This document shows, in pieces, positions 25,820 to 58,103 of a DNA stretch of 64,000 nt. This DNA is from Octopus vulgaris (lineage: Eukaryota). A program made the position numbers and the translations under genes. The notes beneath the pieces are model-generated. The model did no database searches, was not told where the DNA came from, and saw only the letters and a list, made by a program, of their open reading frames with translations. Position 1 is the stretch's first letter. Every line of letters begins with the position of its first letter. The stretch covers positions 68,572,001 to 68,636,000 of the forward strand of contig OX597832.1 of the NCBI GenBank assembly GCA_951406725.2. Direction: 5' to 3'.

Positions 25820-27108
25820 CGAGGGACGTTCAATAAGTAATGCCTCTGACCCACTTGCAGTTGTTTGATCTAGCTGAAATTTTGCATGTGCAATCATTTA
25901 TATCTCTATAGAGTAAGTGGCAAATTACAGCTCTGAATTAATTGTGGTTTCTGATTTACAGGTGTTTGAACAGAGTCAAGTGTGAAATGGAGCCTGTTGA
26001 GTGTCGAGCAGTGATCCAGTTTTTGTATTTGAAAGGATGCACATCACGGGAGACTTTTGATGAAATGAAAGTAACTTATGGTGATGATGCCCCATCATAT
26101 GACCTTGTAAAATGCTGGCATCATGAATTCAAACATGGTCAGAACTCTGTGGAAACAGCTCCCAGATCTGGTTGCCCCTTCTGCCATTGATGACGCATCT
26201 GTCTGTGAAGTTGAGGCTGCCATTTTGGAAGATCGACGCATAATTATTCGCTAAATAGCCCATGAGGTCAAGATTAGTACCGGGTCTGTGGAAACTATCA
26301 TTCATGACCATTTGCATATGCAAAAGGTGTCTGCCAGATGGATTCCCAGGTTGCTCACGCCTTTCCAGAAACAAGAACGCATCGAGTGCTCGAGGGTGAA
26401 TTTGGAGATGTGCCAAGAAGATGAGTCAAAATTTTTCAAAAGACTGATTACACAGGATGAAACCTGGGTCCATCACGATGATCCAGAGACCAAAGCCCAG
26501 TCAATGCAGTGGAAGCACCGTGACTCACCCCCTCCAAAGAAGGCAAGGGTGCAGCCCTCCGCTGGCAAGGTCATGCTCACAGTCTTCTGGGACCAGGACG
26601 GAGTAGTGATGACAGATTTCCTGGCAAAGGGTACCACAATTGCAGGAGCCTATTATGCTTCACTTTTGAGGATATTAAGAGAAGTTATCAAAATCAAGAG
26701 GCGGGGCAAGATCAGCAAAGGCATCCTCCTCCTGCAGGACAACGCTCCGGTCCACAACTCACTTGTCGCCAGATCAGAAGCACAGGCGTATGGCTATGAA
26801 CTCCTCCCCCATCCCCCTACTTTCATGACCTTGCACCCTCTGATTTTCATCTCTTCCCAGTCATGAAGTTGTTTTTGAAAGGAAAGCGTTTCCCAGATGA
26901 TGCAGCCTTGATTTCTGAAGTCACGTTCAGGTTGGAGGACCAAGCTGGGGTCTTCTACAAAAACGGTCTCCAGAGCTGCATCAAACAATGGGAGAAATGC
27001 GTAACTCTGGATGGTTCCTATGTAGAAAAGACTAATAACTGTGCCAAGTTTCGTTGCTCTACTGCTATGGGAAGTGGGTCAGGGGCATTACTTATTGAAC
27101 GCCCCTCG
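25820..27108 (+). mobile_element. Full-length mariner DNA transposon (1289 bp)
   Basis: 37-bp TIRs cgaggg(a/g)cgttcaataagtaatgcc(t/c)ctgacccactt with 2 mismatches, and TA duplication at both ends. Confidence 0.97.
25987..27036 (+). pseudogene. Mariner DD34D transposase, frameshifted with a premature stop
   Basis: WIPRLL, ITQDETW, LQDNAPVH and HPP...DLAPSDFHLF motifs are split across three ORFs (25942, 26288, 26863). Confidence 0.95.
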
Positions 27109-27825
27109 TATGTAAGGTGGTAATCTTGATCTCCAACTTTACATGTAAATTGTGCTATAACTCATAATACTCTGTTATTTACCTTGTGAAGATCTCTCAT
27201 AAGGAATTGTGGTGCATAACAAAAATGTGTAATTATATCACTGACAGATGAGAATTGTCTTTGATGTTTACCAGAGCTGCCAAATCCTGTGGTCAGATTC
27301 AGCAATGACTATATTGAATTTGTGAGAAATTTTCTTTCTTATGATATAAAAATCTTTAAAAAATTATGTTCTTTTTAAAGTGAAAATTAATGAAAAATTT
27401 ATCACTTTTATATTTCATAACAATTATCTGTCCTATCCCCATCGATTTCTATTTCAAACTGAAGTGAAAGATGTCCTCTTCATGACAGCATGAATTTCAA
27501 CACAAATCAAGCTACAGCACTCCCCATGCATTGAACTAGAATGATGGCTATTGTTCAGCAGACAAAAGAAGAAGAAAGAGAAAAAACAGGGCACACTTTG
27601 TAAATGGGTGGAAATACCAGGGTGAGTGAAGGCTCCTGGCATATGTAAGTGTCAGATTTTGATTTGAATGATATCAGAAAAAAGTTCAAAATCAGAAGTT
27701 TTAAATTATAAAATTTTTCACAGAAAAAAAATGATTTTGGCATAAAAATGATCAAGCAAAAAGTGTGTCTTTGTGTCGTTAAACTGTGCTTGGCTCTCTT
27801 CTGTGGTGCTCTATAGTGATACCTA

Positions 27826-32964: not shown

Positions 32965-33985
32965 TCATATGTTGTGGTTTGTGTTAGTGCTCCATTCTAG
33001 TTTTCTATTCAGGCTAGGTTTATTTTCTATTATGTGTGTAGCTTCTGTAATTTGTCTAATTGTTGCATATGATCTATGTGTGGATAATATTTTAATTTCT
33101 ATGTTATTGATTGATCCCCCGTGTTCCTGTTTGGCGTGTTGGTACAGAATCGATGAGCTTTTACCTTCCTTGAGTTGTCTCAAATGCTCATTTACCCACT
33201 CTCCTATGCTTCTTGCCGTTTCCCCTATGTATGTTGTTGTCTTGTTACTGCATCGTCCCTCTATACATCTTATACTATAGACTACATTTCTGGCTTTACA
33301 GTTTGTTTGTGGGCTAAATCTACATACAGTACAGTACTTATCCGTACAGGGGGTTCTACTAAAAGGATAGGTTCTACCAATTATAGATTTGATAGGGTTG
33401 CCTGGCTTTTCAACAACCTTAATTCTTAGCTTAAGTTTGTCTAGGGTCCTTCTAAAGCGGTACGCCAGTTCACCTCCAGGGGTGGTGTCAACGAACATGA
33501 CACTCTGATATTTATGGCTATCATACCAAGAGTTGGCCTTCCCTATTTTCTTTTTTGTCCTTTCTATAGTGTTCCATGACTTGTTCCTATAGAGTGGGCA
33601 AATCCCATTCCTATCATTACATAATATATTATCAAATTTCTTAATGGCTCCTTTGTATACTCTGATCCTTTCTTTATGGCTGTAACCTGAGAACTGCATG
33701 CGGTGAATGAAATATTGTATGTGTCTCTTTAACTCTGTAGGCTCACACATGCGTGACCCATTTCTCATTATTCTGACGAGGGCTGCCATCAAAATATTGA
33801 ATTTGGCATTGTCCGCAATGGCTGAGTTGCGGTGGATCAAGTATTTTGAGGCCATAGGTTTGGCATAGTATGAATGAAGGATTTGGGTTTTATTATTCAC
33901 AATTTCTAGCCAGAGTTCGGTGTCTAGTACTGGTAGTCTATGGTTGGGGTGTTTAGTGGGGTAGTCTATTGTGACCTTAATACTT
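32965..33985 (-). pseudogene. PLE polyprotein C-terminus: RT end/thumb, Cys-rich linker, GIY-YIG endonuclease
   Basis: Frame is open upstream of the listed ORF (…HRLPVLDTELW…, LPFLD-like). YYAKPMAS; CTDKYCTVC…NCKARNVVYSIRC…YIGETARSIGEWVNEH…LYQH…RQITEA..I…PSLNRK. Confidence 0.92.
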
Positions 33986-35391
33986 GATCCACCGGAACTC
34001 AGCCATTGCGGACAATGCCAAGTTCAATATTTTGATGGCAGCATATGTGTGTTTTGTGTTTATTGGTATTACATAATTCAGTAATTTATTAATGATGCAT
34101 TTTAATCGATCCACGTCTGATCAACTACAATAGTACAGAGATCTGGAATTAAATGCCAACATATCCACCTGAAACATACCCATCTTCTATCCTGTATTAC
34201 TAATCTTTTATTCTTTAAATAACATTTCTACATATATATTTGTGTTGTGTGTGTGTGTGTATGTACGTACGTATGTATGTGTAGTCAAACGTCAAAATAA
34301 AGCAGGATTAGTAATCCAGGCAAAATAATACAAGCACTCTACACATAAAAATTCACTGGGCTAAGCAACAAGTCCTAAGGTTGATGCTGGAATCCAAGCA
34401 ATCTGAATCTAAGTCTGTTACCAGTCAAATTCATAAGTCTATGGTCAGCAAAGAACTGGTCAGTTACTGCAAATTGATGTGAGTTCACTTTAGCCCTGAA
34501 AAGGACAAAAGCAGGGCTGTTGTGTTCTCTCATTTCTCTTGATTGATCATGGACTGCTGAATTAATGAAACTGATCTACAGAAGTGAATTCCTCCAAATG
34601 CTTCCCTACAGCAACTGGCGGCCCTCACAGAAGATATAGAATTTATTATCTGTGTGAATTTTAAATATATATAAAAGAATTCATAATCCAGGTGAAGTAC
34701 TTTATAAGTTCTCAGTACAAGAGTATACACCAAGCTAGCAAATCTGTTTTGGAATAAATATAGCAAAGAAAGGAATCCAAACTGAACAGTCACCAGTCAA
34801 CTTTATAAATCTGAGACATGATCACCAAGTAAGAGTGGTAAGACCTTGTTACAGAGTAACAGTGCTTTGTGTTCGTAGGCAGCCGGAGCTTTGAACTGTT
34901 CTCTGGTCTGATGAAGTGACCTTATGTCTACATGTGTCTCATGGAATTTATGTGTATGCATGTATATGTACATGTGTATACATGTATATATGTTAATGTA
35001 TTTTCTGAGAGTGTGTACACATATATACATGTATATTCAAGTATGTGTCTGCTTGTGTGTGTGCAAAATAATGTCATTGTTCCTCTGATGATGACCATTG
35101 CCTTTGGGCTGAGAAGCTTAAAAGAATAAAAAGAATCATCATCATCATCATCATCATCATTATTTATTGTCTGCTTTCCATGCTGGCATGGGTTTGACAG
35201 TTTGACAGGAGGTGGCTAGGTGAAGACTGCACAAGGCTTCAATGTCTGTTTGGGCATGGTTTTTACAGCTGCATGCCCCATCTCTATTGCTGAACTGCTA
35301 AGTTACGGGGACATAAACATACTGACATTGGTTGTCAAGCAACAATGGAGGGACAAACACAGACACGCAAACATATGCATATCTATCTATA

Positions 35392-44803: not shown

Positions 44804-44839
<36 letters not shown>

Positions 44840-44971
44840 GGCATTATATACTTGCCAGAAGGCATTATACATACATGCCAAACGCTAAGAGGGACAATTA
44901 GTCATTTCTACCAAAAATATTACTAATCCCACCGAATGCAATTCTTCAAAGTAAGACATTTAAAAATATAT

Positions 44972-45019
44972 AGACCTGTATCACAGTGATTTCATACTTA
45001 CGTACTCATCAGCAGGCCT
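44972..45019 (-). ncRNA. Minimal type I hammerhead ribozyme, tandem copy 1
   Basis: Reverse complement of 45594-45641. Confidence 0.9.
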
Positions 45020-45451
45020 GAATGCATTATAAATAAACAACGACCCTGCCCCGCTTAAGTCGATCAGCTAACTGTTCAACATTCAACGAAGCACATGGGT
45101 GAGTTTACATATATTACATCCTGTCAAATGGCAAACTTTAACGAATTGCATTTCGGGAGAGGAAAAGTTTTTTCGGAATAAAAATTTAGCAATTAAGGAC
45201 AACTACTTAATAAGGAAAACTTAACAAGAAATTGTCAGGTAGATAGCGTAAGAACCTCATAAGAGAAAAAATTTCGAAAATAATTATTTCTTATTGAACA
45301 TATTAATTTATATATAGAGGGCATTATATACTTGCCAGAAGGCATTATACATACATGCCAAACGCTAAGAGGGACAATTAGTCATTTCTACCAAAGATAT
45401 TACTAATCCCACCGAATGCAATTCTTCAAAGTAAGACATTTAAAAATATAT

Positions 45452-45499
45452 AGACCTGTATCACAGTGATTTCATACTTACGTACTCATCAGCAGGCCT
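45452..45499 (-). ncRNA. Minimal type I hammerhead ribozyme, tandem copy 2
   Basis: Identical to copy 1, 480 nt away. Confidence 0.9.
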
Positions 45500-45593
45500 G
45501 AATGCATTATAAATAAACAACGACCCTGCCCCGCTTAAGTCGATCAGCTAACTGTTCAACATTCAACGAAGCACATGCATTTATAATGCATTC

Positions 45594-45641
45594 AGGCCTG
45601 CTGATGAGTACGTAAGTATGAAATCACTGTGATACAGGTCT
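45594..45641 (+). ncRNA. Minimal type I hammerhead ribozyme (inverted arm)
   Basis: aggcctg CTGATGA gtac-gtaa-gtat GAAA tcactgtga TA caggtct. Near-palindromic stem III (ATCACtGTGAT); predicted cleavage after A45634. Confidence 0.92.
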
Positions 45642-46240
45642 ATATATTTTTAAATGTCTTACTTTGAAGAATTGCATTCGGTGGGATTAGTAATATTTTT
45701 TGTAGAAATGACTAATTGTCCCTCTTAGCGTTTGGCATGTATGTATAATGCCTTCTGGCAAGTATATAATGCCCTCTATATATAAATTAATATGTTCAAT
45801 AAGAAATAATTATTTTCGAAATTTTTTCTCTTATGAGGTTCTTACGCTATCTACCTGACAATTTCTTGTTAAGTTTTCCTTATTAAGTAGTTGTCCTTAA
45901 TTGCTATATATATATATATATATATATATCTTCTTGAAGGGCAGTGAGCTGGCAGAATCATTAGCATGCTGTCAGGTGTCAATAAATTAAATCCCTTGTA
46001 CCTTCAGTAGAAAAGATTATTATTGATAGGCTGGCAGAATCATGAAGGCATGAGGAAAATATCATCCTTGGTGTTTTTTATGGCTCTATACATTCTGTGT
46101 TCAAATCCCGACAAATTCAACTTCACATTCATCCTTCTGGTGTTGATAAAATTAAGTACCAGCCAAGACCTGCAATCAATGGTGTTGATTATCACCCTCC
46201 CATCAAAATTACTAGAAAAAAAAAAATATATATATATATA

Positions 46241-53466: not shown

Positions 53467-55845
53467 TGTGAGATATGAAAGCAATTGAAAATATAAAATC
53501 TTCGTATCAAATGATATTTTGCCATTTGTTATAACGCTATTAAAAATAATCATATAATAATAGCACAGTACACCACTACACTAGCTGTTCCGATATATTG
53601 ACAGGGAGTTTGGCTTTTGAATATATTCAATGGCACGGCTTTCTTGAAATCTACACAAATTTACATGAGTTACAGTTATATCCTCTTAGGAGAATGTAAT
53701 GAATAATTTAATGACTAGGTAATCAAGTTATGAAAAACTTTTGGCCAAGACCTGATCATCCATTTATAGACCAATATCTGTCTTAATTTCTATTATTAGG
53801 GAATGATATATCTTGTTCTGTTTGGTATTTACTTCAATAAATAAAATTTATTGCTGACTAAGTTACTCTCCATTGGATATATGCAACTTCAAACCACCAA
53901 ACAGTACCAAATACGATGTGTTGAGTATTAAATAATCCAGAATGTGTTGGGAAAAGAATCAGAAAATTATTCATATTTAGACTGAAAAAGTAAAAGCAAG
54001 CAAGAAGGCATTGGTTCTTATATTTCAGTAATTTTATCCATTTGTTTGTTGTTATTGTTGTTTAAACCTAGGCCAGCCTAGATAAAGCATACCTAAATGC
54101 AAAGATGTTCCAGCTGTGACCATCTTGTCAGTTTCACCACATAAAGAGCTTAATTAATGTGTCTAATGTTGCCTTGCTTTATAGAAAGACAATCAGCAAG
54201 GTGATTTGAAGCAAATTTAGCAGGTCAAGGGATGGCTCAGAGTCAATCTCATTAGCCTGTGTATAGAGCTTTGGTGATGGTGTTTTTGTTTAACACAATC
54301 TACCCACACCAAAAACACATGCAATCAATATTCTTTTCTACTCTAGGCACAAGGCCAGAAAGTTTTGGGGATTAGATCGACCCCAGTACACAAAAATAGT
54401 ACTTAATTTATCAACTACAATAGGATGAAAGGCAAAGTCGACCTCGGCATAATTCAAACTCAGAACATAAAGACAGATGAAATACCGCTAAGCATTTTAC
54501 CCGGTGAGCTAGTTCACTTCCTTCACCTGCAATCAATATTACCAGATTGAGCTGTTACAGGAAACAGAGTCCATCTCAGGCCATCACATTATCAGACATG
54601 TCCTTCTTGTTTTAAGGCAGAAGGATGTGATACATATGGAATTTCACTGGTATTTTTGTAAATATTCCCTCATTGGGTGAGCATCTTTAAACATGTGAGC
54701 ATCTTGTGTCTGTAATTGCAGTTGTTCATGTTCAGTTCAGTCACAACTGAAAAGATCTGAGATGAAAGGCACTCTAACAGTGACCATCCAGTCTGCTTAT
54801 TGCCATATTGTGTTCCAAATTGCAATTCACTTGTGGCTTCATTGTTATTCATAACAAGTCAAATAACATGCAATATGTCCTACATCAGCTGGAAGTTAGT
54901 CCAATGGAGGGGTACTGTAGGAAACGTTGAGTATGGAAGGACTGCCCTCTCTTTGCACACATTTATGTTTTTACATATGGCTGTAAGTTCACATTCCAGC
55001 CGAGTGGTTCCAGGTTCAATCACATTGTGTGGTATTTTGGACAAGTGTCTTCTACAATTCTCTTGGGTTGACTAAACATTGGAAGAGGATTTCATAGATA
55101 GAAACGTGTGTGTATACGTGTGTGTGTGTGTTTGTACCTATGTATGTGTGTATGTCTGCATGCACAAGTGAGTTCATATTTCCTTCAAGGACAATGACGT
55201 TTTAATTTACATATTGAATATTTTGCTATCTTTGCAGAACACTTCCCATAATTAATCTTAAATGAAATCCATTTTCATTTACCAAGAAGTGCACTAAATG
55301 AACTCTCCACAGATATTTCATTGAATTTATCCAAAGAAATCAAAATTTCAAAATAAACTCAAAATACCAAACAGTGTTAAGTGTGGGGTGGGGGATTTAA
55401 ACAGATAAAAACCAGCCAATTCTGTCAAATAGTGTAAAACAAAATAAAAATGATAAAATTATGTAAACATAACAAATAATTGAAAGTAAGACAAAAAAAA
55501 AGCACATATATTTTTGGCCCTTTTTAAATTCTTGTTTTTAGGTCATTTCTTGGTGGCATTTATTTTATTTAGTGACTTTATTTGTTATTTTTTAAATTTT
55601 CAATATTTTGATTTTTTTTTTTGCGATTTCTATCTCTATCCTTTAACTTTGCAAATCAATGAAAATTTTACACTCAACTGTCTTCTCAAAAACATAGAAA
55701 CACAAACCAAAAGGTTGTGATGTAGCAACGTTCCTTTTACATATATATATATATATATATATGTAGGTCCCGGGTTGATTCGGGGTTAACCACAGTAAAT
55801 AAGGTACTCAATACATAGCAGAGTAAAATTAATTTATTATATAGA

Positions 55846-55899
55846 AGGAGCTTCTACAGGACTAGAACTGTTTCATTCAAGAGAAATCTTCAGGAAGCT
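55846..55899 (-). ncRNA. Type I hammerhead ribozyme (left arm)
   Basis: Reverse complement of 55905-55958. Confidence 0.8.
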
Positions 55900-55901
55900 T
55901 C

Positions 55902-55958
55902 AGGAGCTTCCTGAAGATTTCTCTTGAATGAAACAGTTCTAGTCCTGTAGAAGCTCCT
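55902..55958 (+). ncRNA. Type I hammerhead ribozyme (right arm)
   Basis: aggagcttc CTGAAGA t-ttc-tctt-gaa-t GAAA cag-ttctagtc-ctg TA gaagctcct. 9-bp stem I, GUA site, U.U at the base of stem II. Confidence 0.85.
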
Positions 55959-55964
55959 TCTATA

Positions 55965-55995
<31 letters not shown>

Positions 55996-56056
55996 TTTAA
56001 AAATATAAATATATGAGAGAATGGAGCTGAACGACGAATTAACAAAATTCCTTTAT

Positions 56057-56137
56057 TTTCGACATATGTTTCGAAGGCTGCATAATCCTAATTGCAAAGG
56101 AATAAGGAGTACATTATGCCGCTTTCTCATCAGGAAA
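56057..56137 (-). ncRNA. Type I hammerhead ribozyme in the inverted pLTR
   Basis: Near-exact reverse complement of 57820-57902. Confidence 0.85.
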
Positions 56138-56368
56138 GCAAGGAACTTATGTCAACATCAAAATGCACAAAAAACTTTTAGATGATTGCTCACACGGAGC
56201 CCATAGCGATAATGAGTGTCTCTTTAAAATATTCCTTTATAAGGAGTGACGTCAAAATGGTTGGATGTAGAAGATTCTAGAAGGTTGTAAAGGTTCAAGG
56301 GTTGTAAAGGTTCATAGATTTCTAGTGTTGGAGAATGCAATCCTCAATGCAATATCAATTCGCATAAG

Positions 56369-57220
56369 GTGAGGATTGCATTCTCCAACACTAGAAATCT
56401 ATCGCAGATAATTGCCTCCCATAATAATAAGCTGCTAAATAAGGACTCTTCACCCAGGAGTAGCGACACTGCCCTTACCAATTCCAACCTAACATACAAT
56501 AATAATAATAATAGAAATAGTATTGATATTAGCAACATTCATAGCAGCATTGGCGTTAACAATAGTAATAATGATAATAACATTAGCCGAATTATTAACA
56601 GTGGTGGTGTTAGTGATAATAGTAACAGCATTTCTAATAACAGTTGTATTATTGATGATAACAATCACAGCATTCCTATAGTCAGAGAAATTGCCGACGA
56701 TATTACAATTAATAGTAATGATAATAAGATGAATAGTTTCGTGGCCAATGCTAGCAACAATATTTACACCTATCATAACAATAAAAACTCTGTTTTAGTA
56801 TCGGAAGTTAACCCCAACAGATTAAAGTTCTTATCCAAAAATTCCAAAATTAGAAACACCATTTACCAGTGCAAAATTTCTTCTGGAACCGATGTCTTCT
56901 TCTACATTAGAGCAACTTCTTCTAAATTAGCCCAAAGGATCTCCAATCATTATTCAACTTTCCGAGATAAGAGAAAACAACACAGCATGGAACTAAGTAA
57001 ATTAGTTTGGTGTCTGAAGGACAGCAATACAACTTTCAAGCTGGAATGGTCCATATTGTCGGTGTCCTTTCCGTTTGATAAGGGCAGAAAGCTTTGTGGC
57101 ATCTGTAATTCCGAACTTTTTCATATTTTGTTCGCCAAAGTCCCTTTAATAAATACAATCGTCGAGAGGTCCTACAGGTGCATGCACTGGCAAAAACAAA
57201 CCTTTCACTCATATGAATAA
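56369..57220 (+). pseudogene. PLE C-terminus: thumb end, Asn-rich linker, GIY-YIG endonuclease with CxxC insert
   Basis: RIAFSNTRNLSQIIASHNNKLL…NTIYQCKI…FYIRATSSKLAQRISNHYSTFRDKRKQHSMELSKLVWCLKD…LEWSIL…LCGICNSE…RCMH. YIG is mutated to YIR and there is no RT core. Confidence 0.85.
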
Positions 57221-57819
57221 TGATTAATATAGATAACCCCTTGAATTTTAATTAATATAACTTTTTTTATATATGTCACCCCCATAGTCATAAAAAAATT
57301 TTTCATACTTTCAAAGAACTACTACCCAATCCAGTGAGGTATGTGTTGCCTTAGTCCCCCTACCTCGCCCTCCTCTTTCTCTCTCTTTCTCTCTCTATAT
57401 CCCTCTTTCTATAGTAAGCACAATCAAACACACAGACACAAACCTCTCACCTCACCACTGTCTGTTTTCTGACATCTACCCATCCACATACACAATCACG
57501 CACACACATACACAAACACACACATTAATGCAGTTATATACAGTCACACACACAGGCACTCATTCACAAAATAAATTAACAAAATCCACCATTCATATGA
57601 CCTGCACCCTTTCACCTTCCTATTCTTATGCCTCTCTCCTCCAACTTCGTTTGAACCCTTGAACCTTTACAACCTTCTAGAATCTTCTACATCCAACCAT
57701 TTTGACGTCACTCCTTATAAAGGAATATTTTAAAGAGACACTCATTATCGCTATGGGCTCCGTGTGAGCAATCATCTAAAAGTTTTTTGTGCATTTTGAT
57801 GTTGACATAAGTTCCTTGC

Positions 57820-57902
57820 TTTTCCTGATGAGAAAGCGGTATAATGTACTCCTTATTCCTTCGCAATTAGGAATATGCAGCCTTCGAAACATATGTCGAA
57901 AA
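57820..57902 (+). ncRNA. Type I hammerhead ribozyme with long stem II and palindromic stem III
   Basis: ttttc CTGATGA gaaagcggtata…attcct-tcgcaatt-aggaat…tatgcagccttc GAAA catatg TC gaaaa. Predicted cleavage after C57897. Confidence 0.88.
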
Positions 57903-58103
57903 TAAAGGAATTTTGTTAATTCATCGTTCAGCTCCATTCTTTCATATATTTATATTTTTAAAATAAACATACAAATTTCCACACGAAAGCACGTAATCTA
58001 TGCCCTAGGCACGTAGCTTCAACCGTGTTTTTTCTGATGTGAATTTGCTACCCAGGTATCAGTTAATTCGAATTATCCTTAATAAGATAATTCATTCAAC
58101 TAC

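What the first reader, a model, noticed from the sequence alone, without database searches (positions are those of the whole stretch)
55763..55973. Minimal 211-bp cassette: a perfect 69-bp palindrome made almost entirely of two back-to-back ribozymes
Seen: zero mismatches between arms. The symmetry axis sits exactly at the 5' edge of HHR stem I (aggagcttc/gaagctcct), suggesting that the stem I inverted repeat provided the microhomology for joining the two cDNAs or for foldback. It is separated from PLE 2 only by (TA)n but is unrelated in sequence. The core has an unusual U.U in place of the G10.1-C11.1 pair. Inference: in a read-through transcript the perfect hairpin would mask the HHR.
Basis: partly seen in the sequence, partly recalled or inferred. 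Interest (0 to 1): 0.75.

Follow-up and report, generated by a model that had tools for sequence, protein, structure and literature searches.

The report
Penelope transposon's mirrored start-of-transcript stubs
The small palindrome is one of hundreds of two-armed stubs identical to the front end of a protein-coding Penelope-like retrotransposon in the same genome, likely formed anew at each insertion when two DNA copies run off the likely capped start of the element's RNA and are joined head to head, which would show how these elements make their inverted ends.

Summary
The palindrome is real: 70-bp perfect arms around a 5-nt insert, a type I hammerhead motif on each strand, (TA)n on both sides. 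It is not unique or an artefact: the genome holds 1,775 exact hammerhead-core hits and 303 zero-loop centres. The long arm equals bases +1 to +141 of an autonomous Penelope-like element (intact 713-aa RT/GIY-YIG ORF, Hydra-clade motifs); the short arm is +1 to +70. In 67 sampled loci, arm 5' ends pile up at +1/+2 (38 of 114), with none at -1 to -9. A TATA box sits at -29 in 4 of 4 parent variants, and a non-native G precedes 22 of 32 free ends. 26 of 27 cassettes carry exactly one tail. The window's junction recurs at 12 loci with both tail polarities and two subfamilies, and 7 of 95 cassettes have unlike arms. Best reading: internal priming at two sites near the mRNA 5' end, run-off at the cap, then end-joining. 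Inverted pLTRs and tails are known; I found no paper on start-site-bounded stubs. No RNA or raw-read data could be obtained.

The parts
55741..55762 (.). (TA)n target microsatellite, left part; its last 4 bases also match parent +138 to +141
   Evidence: sequence; blastn of parent against window matches 141 nt, 55899-55759
55763..55899 (-). Long arm: parent bases +1 to +137 (hammerhead motif, AT-rich stretch, tail); 5' end at 55899
   Evidence: identical to parent L151 +1..+137
55763..55829 (-). One-sided 'tail' (+71 to +137), inferred to lie between two reverse-transcription start sites
   Evidence: of 199 arms, 93 end at +58..+72 and 103 at +134..+141; exactly one tail in 26 of 27 cassettes
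55849..55899 (-). Type I hammerhead motif, 6-bp stem I; predicted cleavage between 55855 and 55854
   Evidence: motif scan; cleavage not tested
55900..55904 (+). 5-nt junction insert TCAGG, a copy of neighbouring arm sequence, ending in the G that precedes +1 of the right arm
   Evidence: same junction at 12 loci
55905..55974 (+). Short arm: parent bases +1 to +70, without tail
   Evidence: blastn 70 of 70 identical to parent
55905..55955 (+). Type I hammerhead motif; predicted cleavage between 55949 and 55950; U.U at 10.1/11.1
   Evidence: motif scan; cleavage not tested
55975..55995 (.). (TA)n target microsatellite, right part, shared with the left end of PLE 2
   Evidence: sequence; inverted arms of PLE 2 at 55982-56303 and 57654-57976

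Best explanation
The cassette is a head-to-head pair of copies of the first 137 and first 70 bases of the hammerhead-bearing front end of an autonomous Hydra-type Penelope-like retrotransposon, likely made anew at each insertion by two reverse transcriptases that start inside the RNA and likely run off its capped transcription start. Shown: sequence identity with the parent, two 3' end points, a sharp 5' boundary at +1/+2, TATA at -29, excess G before the boundary, varied junctions, mixed arms and (TA)n flanks. Inferred steps: (1) the pLTR promoter starts an mRNA at +1 (A) or +2 (G), so the hammerhead is its first 51 nt and the ORF starts at +184; (2) the element's protein, probably a dimer, nicks both strands of a (TA)n tract and primes at about +68 on one strand and about +137 to +141 on the other, at AT-rich spots of the RNA; (3) the template is the uncleaved RNA, helped by a local hairpin over the cleavage site; (4) each cDNA ends at the cap and often gains a C opposite it; (5) the two cDNA ends are joined by microhomology (most often the self-complementary AGCT, or GA using the cap-derived base), sometimes with a short templated insert as in this window. 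The product lacks the TATA box and the ORF, so it is likely dead on arrival. Long insertions with the same ends would come from priming at the downstream pLTR of read-through transcripts.
For: Parent: intact 713-aa ORFs at L151 and L153 with the arm sequence in front, ATG at +184, unit about 5.2-5.6 kb. Long insertions (1-10 kb) end in the same two ways, one end with tail and one without. 5' ends in 67 loci taken from the list: 33 at +1, 5 at +2, 20 at +3..+22, 56 at -10 or further upstream, 0 at -1..-9 (a blast version gives 0 between -27 and -1). An older subfamily shows the same pile-up: 40 of 48 arm ends at +1/+2 in 28 loci picked by similarity to an arm. TATA first base at -29 in 4 of 4 parent upstream variants, with substitutions but no indel in the spacer. 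The base before free +1/+2 ends is G in 22 of 32 (background 0.18; binomial p 2.4e-7 against 0.25; native base T). It is GG in only 4 of those 22, and 4 of 5 free +2 ends read G then GCTTC (counted from the printed list). An extra G is the described mark of mRNA capping at full-length L1 junctions and can serve as microhomology (PMC11702581, passages). One tail only: 26 of 27, 29 of 29 and 21 of 21 cassettes in three sets, matching two internal start sites and use of uncleaved RNA shown in vitro for PAc (PMC11167929). De novo formation: 16 junction types in 27 cassettes; the window's junction has the tail left in 5 and right in 7 of 12 loci and occurs with both tail variants; cassette haplotypes have long-copy counterparts except one singleton. 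Two templates at least sometimes: 7 of 95 cassettes have arms of different haplotype, one (L187) differing at two diagnostic sites. 182 of 199 arm ends run into (TA)n.
Against: No RNA evidence: the start site, the cap and hammerhead cleavage are all inferred. Some of the 22 G's could be templated by duplicated CAG from the partner arm, or by a one-base fold-back on stem I (the base after its 3' strand is C). 10 of 32 free ends are not G. 88 of 95 cassettes have identical arm haplotypes, which also fits one RNA or a fold-back. 20 of 58 short arms end at +3..+22 and need resection to be explained. The 67-locus sample comes from the first 149 Mb of one contig and needed one exact young-type core per locus. 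The initiator matches only as pyrimidine-purine. PAc primes without homology and belongs to another clade, whereas ends here fall at TA-like spots. In a second hammerhead family of the window, 5 head-to-head palindromes also centre near stem I although its TATA-like stretch lies only about 10-20 nt upstream (read by eye), so a self-complementary stem edge alone can attract some joins.
Confidence: 0.72

Rival explanations
1. Fold-back or self-priming: one cDNA (or an antisense RNA) folds back at stem I or at AGCT and copies itself, so the axis is set by structure and not by a transcription start. This is the first reader's second option and close to the antisense self-priming proposal for head-to-head Penelope palindromes.
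For: 88 of 95 cassettes have identical arm haplotypes. The cDNA end can re-form stem I, and the next templated base would read as G. L057 joins through the stem I repeat. Head-to-head palindromes were read as self-priming on an antisense template in PMC3846280 (passage).
Against: 7 of 95 cassettes have unlike arms. Solo arms start at G+1 right after (TA)n with no partner (L115, L128). Fold-back predicts runs GG or AGG, seen in 4 of 22, and cannot give G before a +2 start (4 of 5). A polymerase meets the 3' strand of stem I first, so a structural stop is expected near +51, not +1 (inference). The 6-bp palindrome GTTAAC just upstream in the young parent is not used: no ends at -1..-9.
Confidence: 0.14
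2. The fixed 5' end is made by RNA processing: cleavage by an upstream tandem hammerhead, or a splice acceptor at the stem I edge as in D. virilis Penelope.
For: Tandem hammerheads joined at the cleavage site exist (L018; L054). The parent has a pyrimidine-rich stretch then TAG at -1..+2. The D. virilis intron ends at the 5' edge of helix I (PMC4209133).
Against: Tandem cleavage would leave GA before AGCTTC, but free ends mostly show a single G after varied bases. Splicing would start the exon at +3 behind a constant upstream exon, yet only 1 of 114 arms starts at +3 and no constant upstream sequence is seen. Parents with ORFs carry a single hammerhead.
Confidence: 0.08
3. The whole palindrome is a self-standing non-autonomous element (MITE-like or retrozyme-like) copied as a unit from a few master copies.
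For: Hundreds of near-identical copies; 303 share one centre; 12 share the window's centre.
Against: The window's junction occurs with both tail polarities and two subfamilies. Another asymmetric junction has the tail left in 11, right in 5 and on both sides in 1. 16 junction types in 27 cassettes. Haplotypes track those of long copies. No promoter, no tandem arrays of the unit, no terminal inverted repeats at both outer ends.
Confidence: 0.04
4. Assembly or sequencing fold-back artefact.
For: Perfect palindromes next to (TA)n can be artefacts (own knowledge); raw reads were not seen.
Against: Same architecture at many loci with different flanks, asymmetric tail, varied junctions, private arm mutations and mixed subfamilies.
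Confidence: 0.01

Closest known systems
Insertion structure of endonuclease-positive Penelope-like elements: inverted 5'-truncated copy plus one-sided tail (PMC8557442 passages; PMC3846280 parts 1-3)
   Same: Head-to-head inverted copy, tail at one end only, microhomology at the junction, TATA and initiator-like motifs in the pLTR, hammerhead in the pLTR.
   Different: No ORF and no element body; both arms bounded at one fixed position with an extra G; tail about 67-70 nt against 30-40; present in hundreds of copies.
Hydra clade of C-terminal EN+ PLEs (PMC8557442 section 11)
   Same: Parent has RWR (for RWK), DKT, CxCx5C linker, CxxC and CxH, C-terminal GIY-YIG-type domain, hammerhead, (TA)n target.
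   Different: Unit of 5.2-5.6 kb against the usual under 3 kb, owing to a 3-kb microsatellite-rich 3' region; no phylogeny was run.
PAc (Poseidon, Anolis) internal two-site initiation (PMC11167929 parts 1-2)
   Same: Two 3' end points bounding a tail, both target strands extended, uncleaved hammerhead RNA as template, AT-rich target.
   Different: Here both end points lie in the 5' untranslated part (ATG at +184), they fall at TA-like spots, and the run-off products at the RNA 5' end are seen in the genome; the parts read did not describe such products.
Minimal hammerheads of metazoan PLEs (PMC4209133 parts 1-2)
   Same: Type I topology in the pLTR; that paper notes opposite-strand pairs 100-700 bp apart, ascribed to truncated PLEs.
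   Different: G10.1-C11.1 is replaced by U.U, stem II is short (3 bp), stem III is longer (4 bp with an 8-nt loop), and the two cores lie about 17 bp apart.
Non-LTR retrozymes (10.64898/2026.07.22.740005 parts 1 and 3)
   Same: Non-coding, type I hammerhead, derived from a PLE pLTR.
   Different: Retrozymes are head-to-tail tandems thought to give circles; this unit is head-to-head, dispersed and likely not re-mobilised.

Membership tests
EN+ Penelope-like element (parent) | Single ORF with RT and C-terminal GIY-YIG endonuclease | tested here: met
   713-aa ORF with YRDD at 347 and YIG at 603. Atlas neighbours carry GIY-YIG, RVT_1 or HTH_animal on part of their members. Pfam HMM scan gave no RT or GIY-YIG hit, so the call rests on motifs and the atlas.
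EN+ Penelope-like element (parent) | pLTR from partial tandem, inverted 5'-truncated copy, one-sided tail | tested here: met
Hydra clade | RWK motif, DKG changed to DKT, CxCx5C linker, CxxC and CxH, no Cx2-5CxxC finger | tested here: met
   RWR at 38 (conservative change), DKT at 116, CNCPDKTTC at 567, CDLC at 667, CMH at 695, no DKG, no Cx2-5CxxC
Hydra clade | Insertion into (TA)n | tested here: met
   182 of 199 arm ends
Hydra clade | Short length (generally under 3 kb) | tested here: not met
   5.2-5.6 kb between successive +1 positions; the paper says 'generally', so this lowers but does not exclude membership
Hydra clade | Groups with reference Hydra RTs in a phylogeny | not tested
   reference sequences were not at hand
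Type I hammerhead ribozyme | Core CUGANGA, GAAA and NUH around three stems | tested here: met
   family variants seen 10 or more times fall at N7, loop II, loop III and downstream only (low power, many loci were picked on an exact core)
Type I hammerhead ribozyme | G10.1-C11.1 pair | tested here: not met
   U.U, nearly invariant in 239 arm contexts; described as highly conserved in PLE hammerheads
Type I hammerhead ribozyme | Self-cleavage | not testable with these tools
   no assay; predicted stem II pair probability only 0.05-0.07 in an isolated arm; no Rfam hit
Non-LTR retrozyme | At least two consecutive head-to-tail units each with a hammerhead | tested here: not met
   cassettes are head-to-head and dispersed; only rare 47-nt tandem duplications (L018, L046, L054)
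MITE / inherited palindromic element | Copied as a fixed unit with constant internal structure | tested here: not met
   junction diversity and mixed tail polarity

The most novel reading that the evidence does not exclude
These stubs are a genome-wide record of the Penelope insertion reaction in vivo: a dimeric enzyme primes both target strands at two fixed internal sites on two separate capped, sense, uncleaved RNAs, and about half of all arms come from the very 5' end of the mRNA. That would settle how head-to-head inverted pLTRs form (two sense cDNAs, not antisense self-priming), let start sites of such elements be read off any assembly from the extra G, and place the hammerhead as a self-decapping switch in the first 51 nt of the mRNA, held off by an overlapping hairpin.
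Probability: 0.4. Interest if true: 0.7.

Novelty: new variant of a known kind. Interest (0 to 1): 0.5.

Why it matters
How Penelope-like elements make their tandem and inverted ends, and what their hammerheads do, are named as open questions in PMC8557442 (passages). One earlier proposal invoked self-priming on antisense RNA (PMC3846280). A family with hundreds of tiny, young products and intact parents makes these questions testable: the start site, cap copying, two-template use and cleavage state can each be checked by CAGE, a junction census and a short in vitro reaction. If read through, each stub would give a perfect hairpin of about 70 bp, a possible source of small RNAs against the parent's 5' end; inverted Penelope copies have been linked to siRNAs in flies (PMC3681739 passages). 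For annotation, such stubs are easily misfiled as MITEs or retrozymes. The locus itself is most likely a dead insertion.

Tried and rejected
Rfam at gathering thresholds: no hit. Pfam: no RT or GIY-YIG hit for the parent or two window ORFs; one weak unrelated hit below its cut-off was ignored. A tail-only DNA search, meant to sample arms without requiring the hammerhead, returned nothing, so use of cleaved RNA (arms starting at +46) is only weakly tested: none among the 30 short loci of the sample, L057 ambiguous. The promoter scan is bacterial and uninformative here. One search read the variant position wrongly and one search used a reference shifted by one base; both were replaced. One search dropped most arms of the ORF-adjacent set through a position filter, so L128 and L145 are not among the 32 free ends. 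The set was left out of the G count because it was selected on GG, and tail-bearing arms of the set because the query fixed their neighbouring base. Two places of the list (L079 and the last listed hit) were not in the 67-locus sample. No RNA or raw reads were obtained, which leaves the start site, cap, cleavage and read support open. Literature searches gave no paper describing ORF-less, start-site-bounded palindromic PLE stubs or a cap G in PLE junctions. The library lacks most subscription papers, the hammerhead file S2 of PMC8557442 was not among the held supplements, and the preprint's supplements were not seen. Earlier-findings look-ups by sequence and by place were empty. Rejected: artefact, inherited MITE, retrozyme, derivation from PLE 2, and a native 9-bp stem I.

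Full report
Observation. The window holds exact inverted arms at 55830-55899 and 55905-55974 (70 bp) around TCAGG, flanked by (TA)n. Each arm carries a type I hammerhead motif reading away from the centre. As RNA the palindrome folds at -120.4 kcal/mol, z -25.7. Rfam has no hit at gathering thresholds. The left arm continues for 67 more bases (the tail) before (TA)n. I number the arm from the A of AGCTTC as +1.

A family, not a single event. The window lies in G000, a 2.8-Gb AT-rich, microsatellite-dense animal assembly; a short repeat nearby resembles, from memory, a cephalopod one, which was not tested. All 40 scored of 440 candidates matched the 138-nt query fully, and all 40 had a second, inverted match adjacent. 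The exact 45-nt core occurs 897 + 878 times, the zero-loop centre 303 times, and the window's own junction 12 times on 10 contigs. With 7 of 27 sampled cassettes having the zero-loop centre, several hundred to about a thousand cassettes are likely (estimate).

The parent. Pairs of cores 1-10 kb apart delimit long inverted insertions that end exactly like the cassette, one end with the tail and one without. Behind about 3 kb of microsatellite-rich sequence they contain a GIY-YIG-type coding end. Searching with the sequence that follows the tail in L068 gave 30 loci; besides L068 itself, nearly all have hammerhead and tail directly in front of an ORF. Two full 713-aa ORFs without stops were found (L151, L153). 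The long arm is identical to parent +1..+137 (141 with the ATAT that follows), the short arm to +1..+70, and the ATG is at +184. The protein has RWR, DKT, YRDD, CxCx5C, YIG, CxxC and CxH, which fits the Hydra-clade description (PMC8557442 section 11). Pfam profiles miss it; atlas neighbours carry GIY-YIG and RT families on part of their members. PLE 2 next door is another family (35% identity over 130 aa; no DNA match) that used the same (TA)n tract.

3' ends. Of 199 arms, 93 end at +58..+72 (57 at +68) and 103 at +134..+141; 182 run into (TA)n. Exactly one arm has the tail in 26 of 27, 29 of 29 and 21 of 21 cassettes of three sets. This matches the two internal start sites, extension of both target strands and use of uncleaved RNA reported for PAc in vitro (PMC11167929 parts 1-2). 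The strict one-tail rule, which also holds in the mixed-subfamily cassettes L054 and L081, points to an asymmetry in the enzyme complex and not to random pairing of tailed and tailless RNAs (inference).

5' ends. In 67 loci taken by coordinate from the list, 114 arms end as follows: 33 at +1, 5 at +2, 20 at +3..+22, 56 at -10 or beyond, none at -1..-9. The older subfamily gives 40 of 48 at +1/+2 (these loci were picked by similarity to an arm). Four parent upstream variants all have TATA starting at -29, with substitutions but no indel in the spacer, and T at -1. Where the base before a +1/+2 end is not supplied by the partner arm it is G in 22 of 32 cases (p 2.4e-7 against 0.25), GG in only 4, and G in 4 of 5 ends at +2. 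L115 and the ORF-bearing L128 begin with G then +1 directly after (TA)n. For L1, an extra G at full-length 5' junctions is read as the copied cap and can act as microhomology (PMC11702581 passages). I infer that +1/+2 is the capped transcription start. Against this: no RNA data, 10 non-G ends, possible templating of some G's by the partner or by a one-base fold-back on stem I, and 5 stem-edge palindromes in a second family without a TATA box at that distance.

Made anew each time. 27 cassettes show 16 junction types. The window's junction has the tail on the left in 5 and on the right in 7 of 12 loci and occurs with both tail variants; a second asymmetric junction splits 11, 5 and 1. Cassette haplotypes have counterparts among long copies except one singleton, and 7 of 95 cassettes have unlike arms, L187 at two diagnostic sites, while 88 are alike. 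An inherited palindrome or a pure fold-back cannot give the unlike arms; at least some insertions use two RNAs.

The ribozyme. Common family variants fall at N7, loop II, loop III and downstream of the motif; U10.1 and U11.1 are nearly invariant (low power). G10.1-C11.1 is described as highly conserved in PLE hammerheads, which cleave poorly in vitro and probably as dimers (PMC4209133 parts 1-2). Stem I forms in an isolated arm (pair probability 0.72-0.99) but not in the parent's first 220 nt (0.01), where a hairpin over the cleavage site competes, nor in the palindrome (0.00). Activity is untested. All copied arms include the part 5' of the cleavage site, so the template was uncleaved; arms starting at +46 were not seen in the 30 short loci of the sample, a weak test.

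Comparison and novelty. Inverted 5'-truncated copies, one-sided tails, junction microhomology and TATA-like motifs in pLTRs are known (PMC8557442 passages; PMC3846280 parts 1-3 and passages; PMC8969392 passages). Opposite-strand hammerhead pairs 100-700 bp apart were noted in PMC4209133. Retrozymes are head-to-tail (10.64898/2026.07.22.740005 parts 1 and 3), which this is not. Ten searches found no description of start-site-bounded, ORF-less stubs or of a cap G in PLE junctions, within a library that lacks most subscription papers. Earlier AI notes report similar 200-bp hammerhead palindromes in other genomes as de novo PLE stubs; these are leads, not support, but they suggest the structure is widespread.

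Verdict. Observation confirmed, interpretation partly supported. The cassette is the shortest insertion product of a young Hydra-type Penelope-like family: a new variant of a known structure, and a dead copy at this locus. Its value lies in what the family's junctions say about the insertion mechanism. Confidence 0.72 in the full mechanism (about 0.95 that it is a de novo PLE insertion product); interest 0.5.

Noticed in passing
window 44806-45930: Second hammerhead family with a unit of about 480 bp in head-to-tail tandems plus an inverted copy (retrozyme-like); 1,096 candidates in the genome, an array of many units near C1:64.64 Mb, and at least 5 head-to-head palindromes centred near its self-complementary stem I edge.
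   Followed up: partly
window 57825-57900: PLE 2's pLTR seems to hold a hammerhead with a very long stem II (about 54 nt) and a palindromic CATATG loop III, missed by my scan (sequence printed, read by eye).
   Followed up: no
window 56318-57220: PLE 2's ORF remnant has an in-frame asparagine-rich (AAT-derived) stretch before the endonuclease, like the N-rich inserts described for Adineta Penelope elements (PMC3846280).
   Followed up: no
window 56314-56402: 33-bp exact inverted repeat with a 23-nt loop at PLE 2's inversion junction.
   Followed up: no
window 32965-34023 (-): 352-aa ORF end with a cysteine cluster and a YIG motif, apparently a Penelope-like element of another clade (no Pfam hit).
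   Followed up: no
window 26255-27123: Frameshifted transposase fragment that looks mariner-like (label recalled, not tested).
   Followed up: no
L061 4254-7301, L065 4601-7720: Long ORFs (1,015 and 1,039 aa) of non-LTR retrotransposons nested in the parent's microsatellite-rich 3' region (label from recalled motifs).
   Followed up: no
L018, L046, L054: 47-nt tandem duplications of the hammerhead joined at or next to the cleavage site through the stem I repeat: possible seeds of retrozyme-like tandems.
   Followed up: partly
L128, L145: ORF-bearing copies that start at or next to +1, one directly after (TA)n with an extra G, one behind an inverted short arm: the cassette's junction type also caps long copies.
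   Followed up: partly
window 55841-55857 (-) and 55947-55963 (+): A short hairpin spanning the predicted cleavage site competes with stem I and could keep the ribozyme off in the parent RNA.
   Followed up: partly
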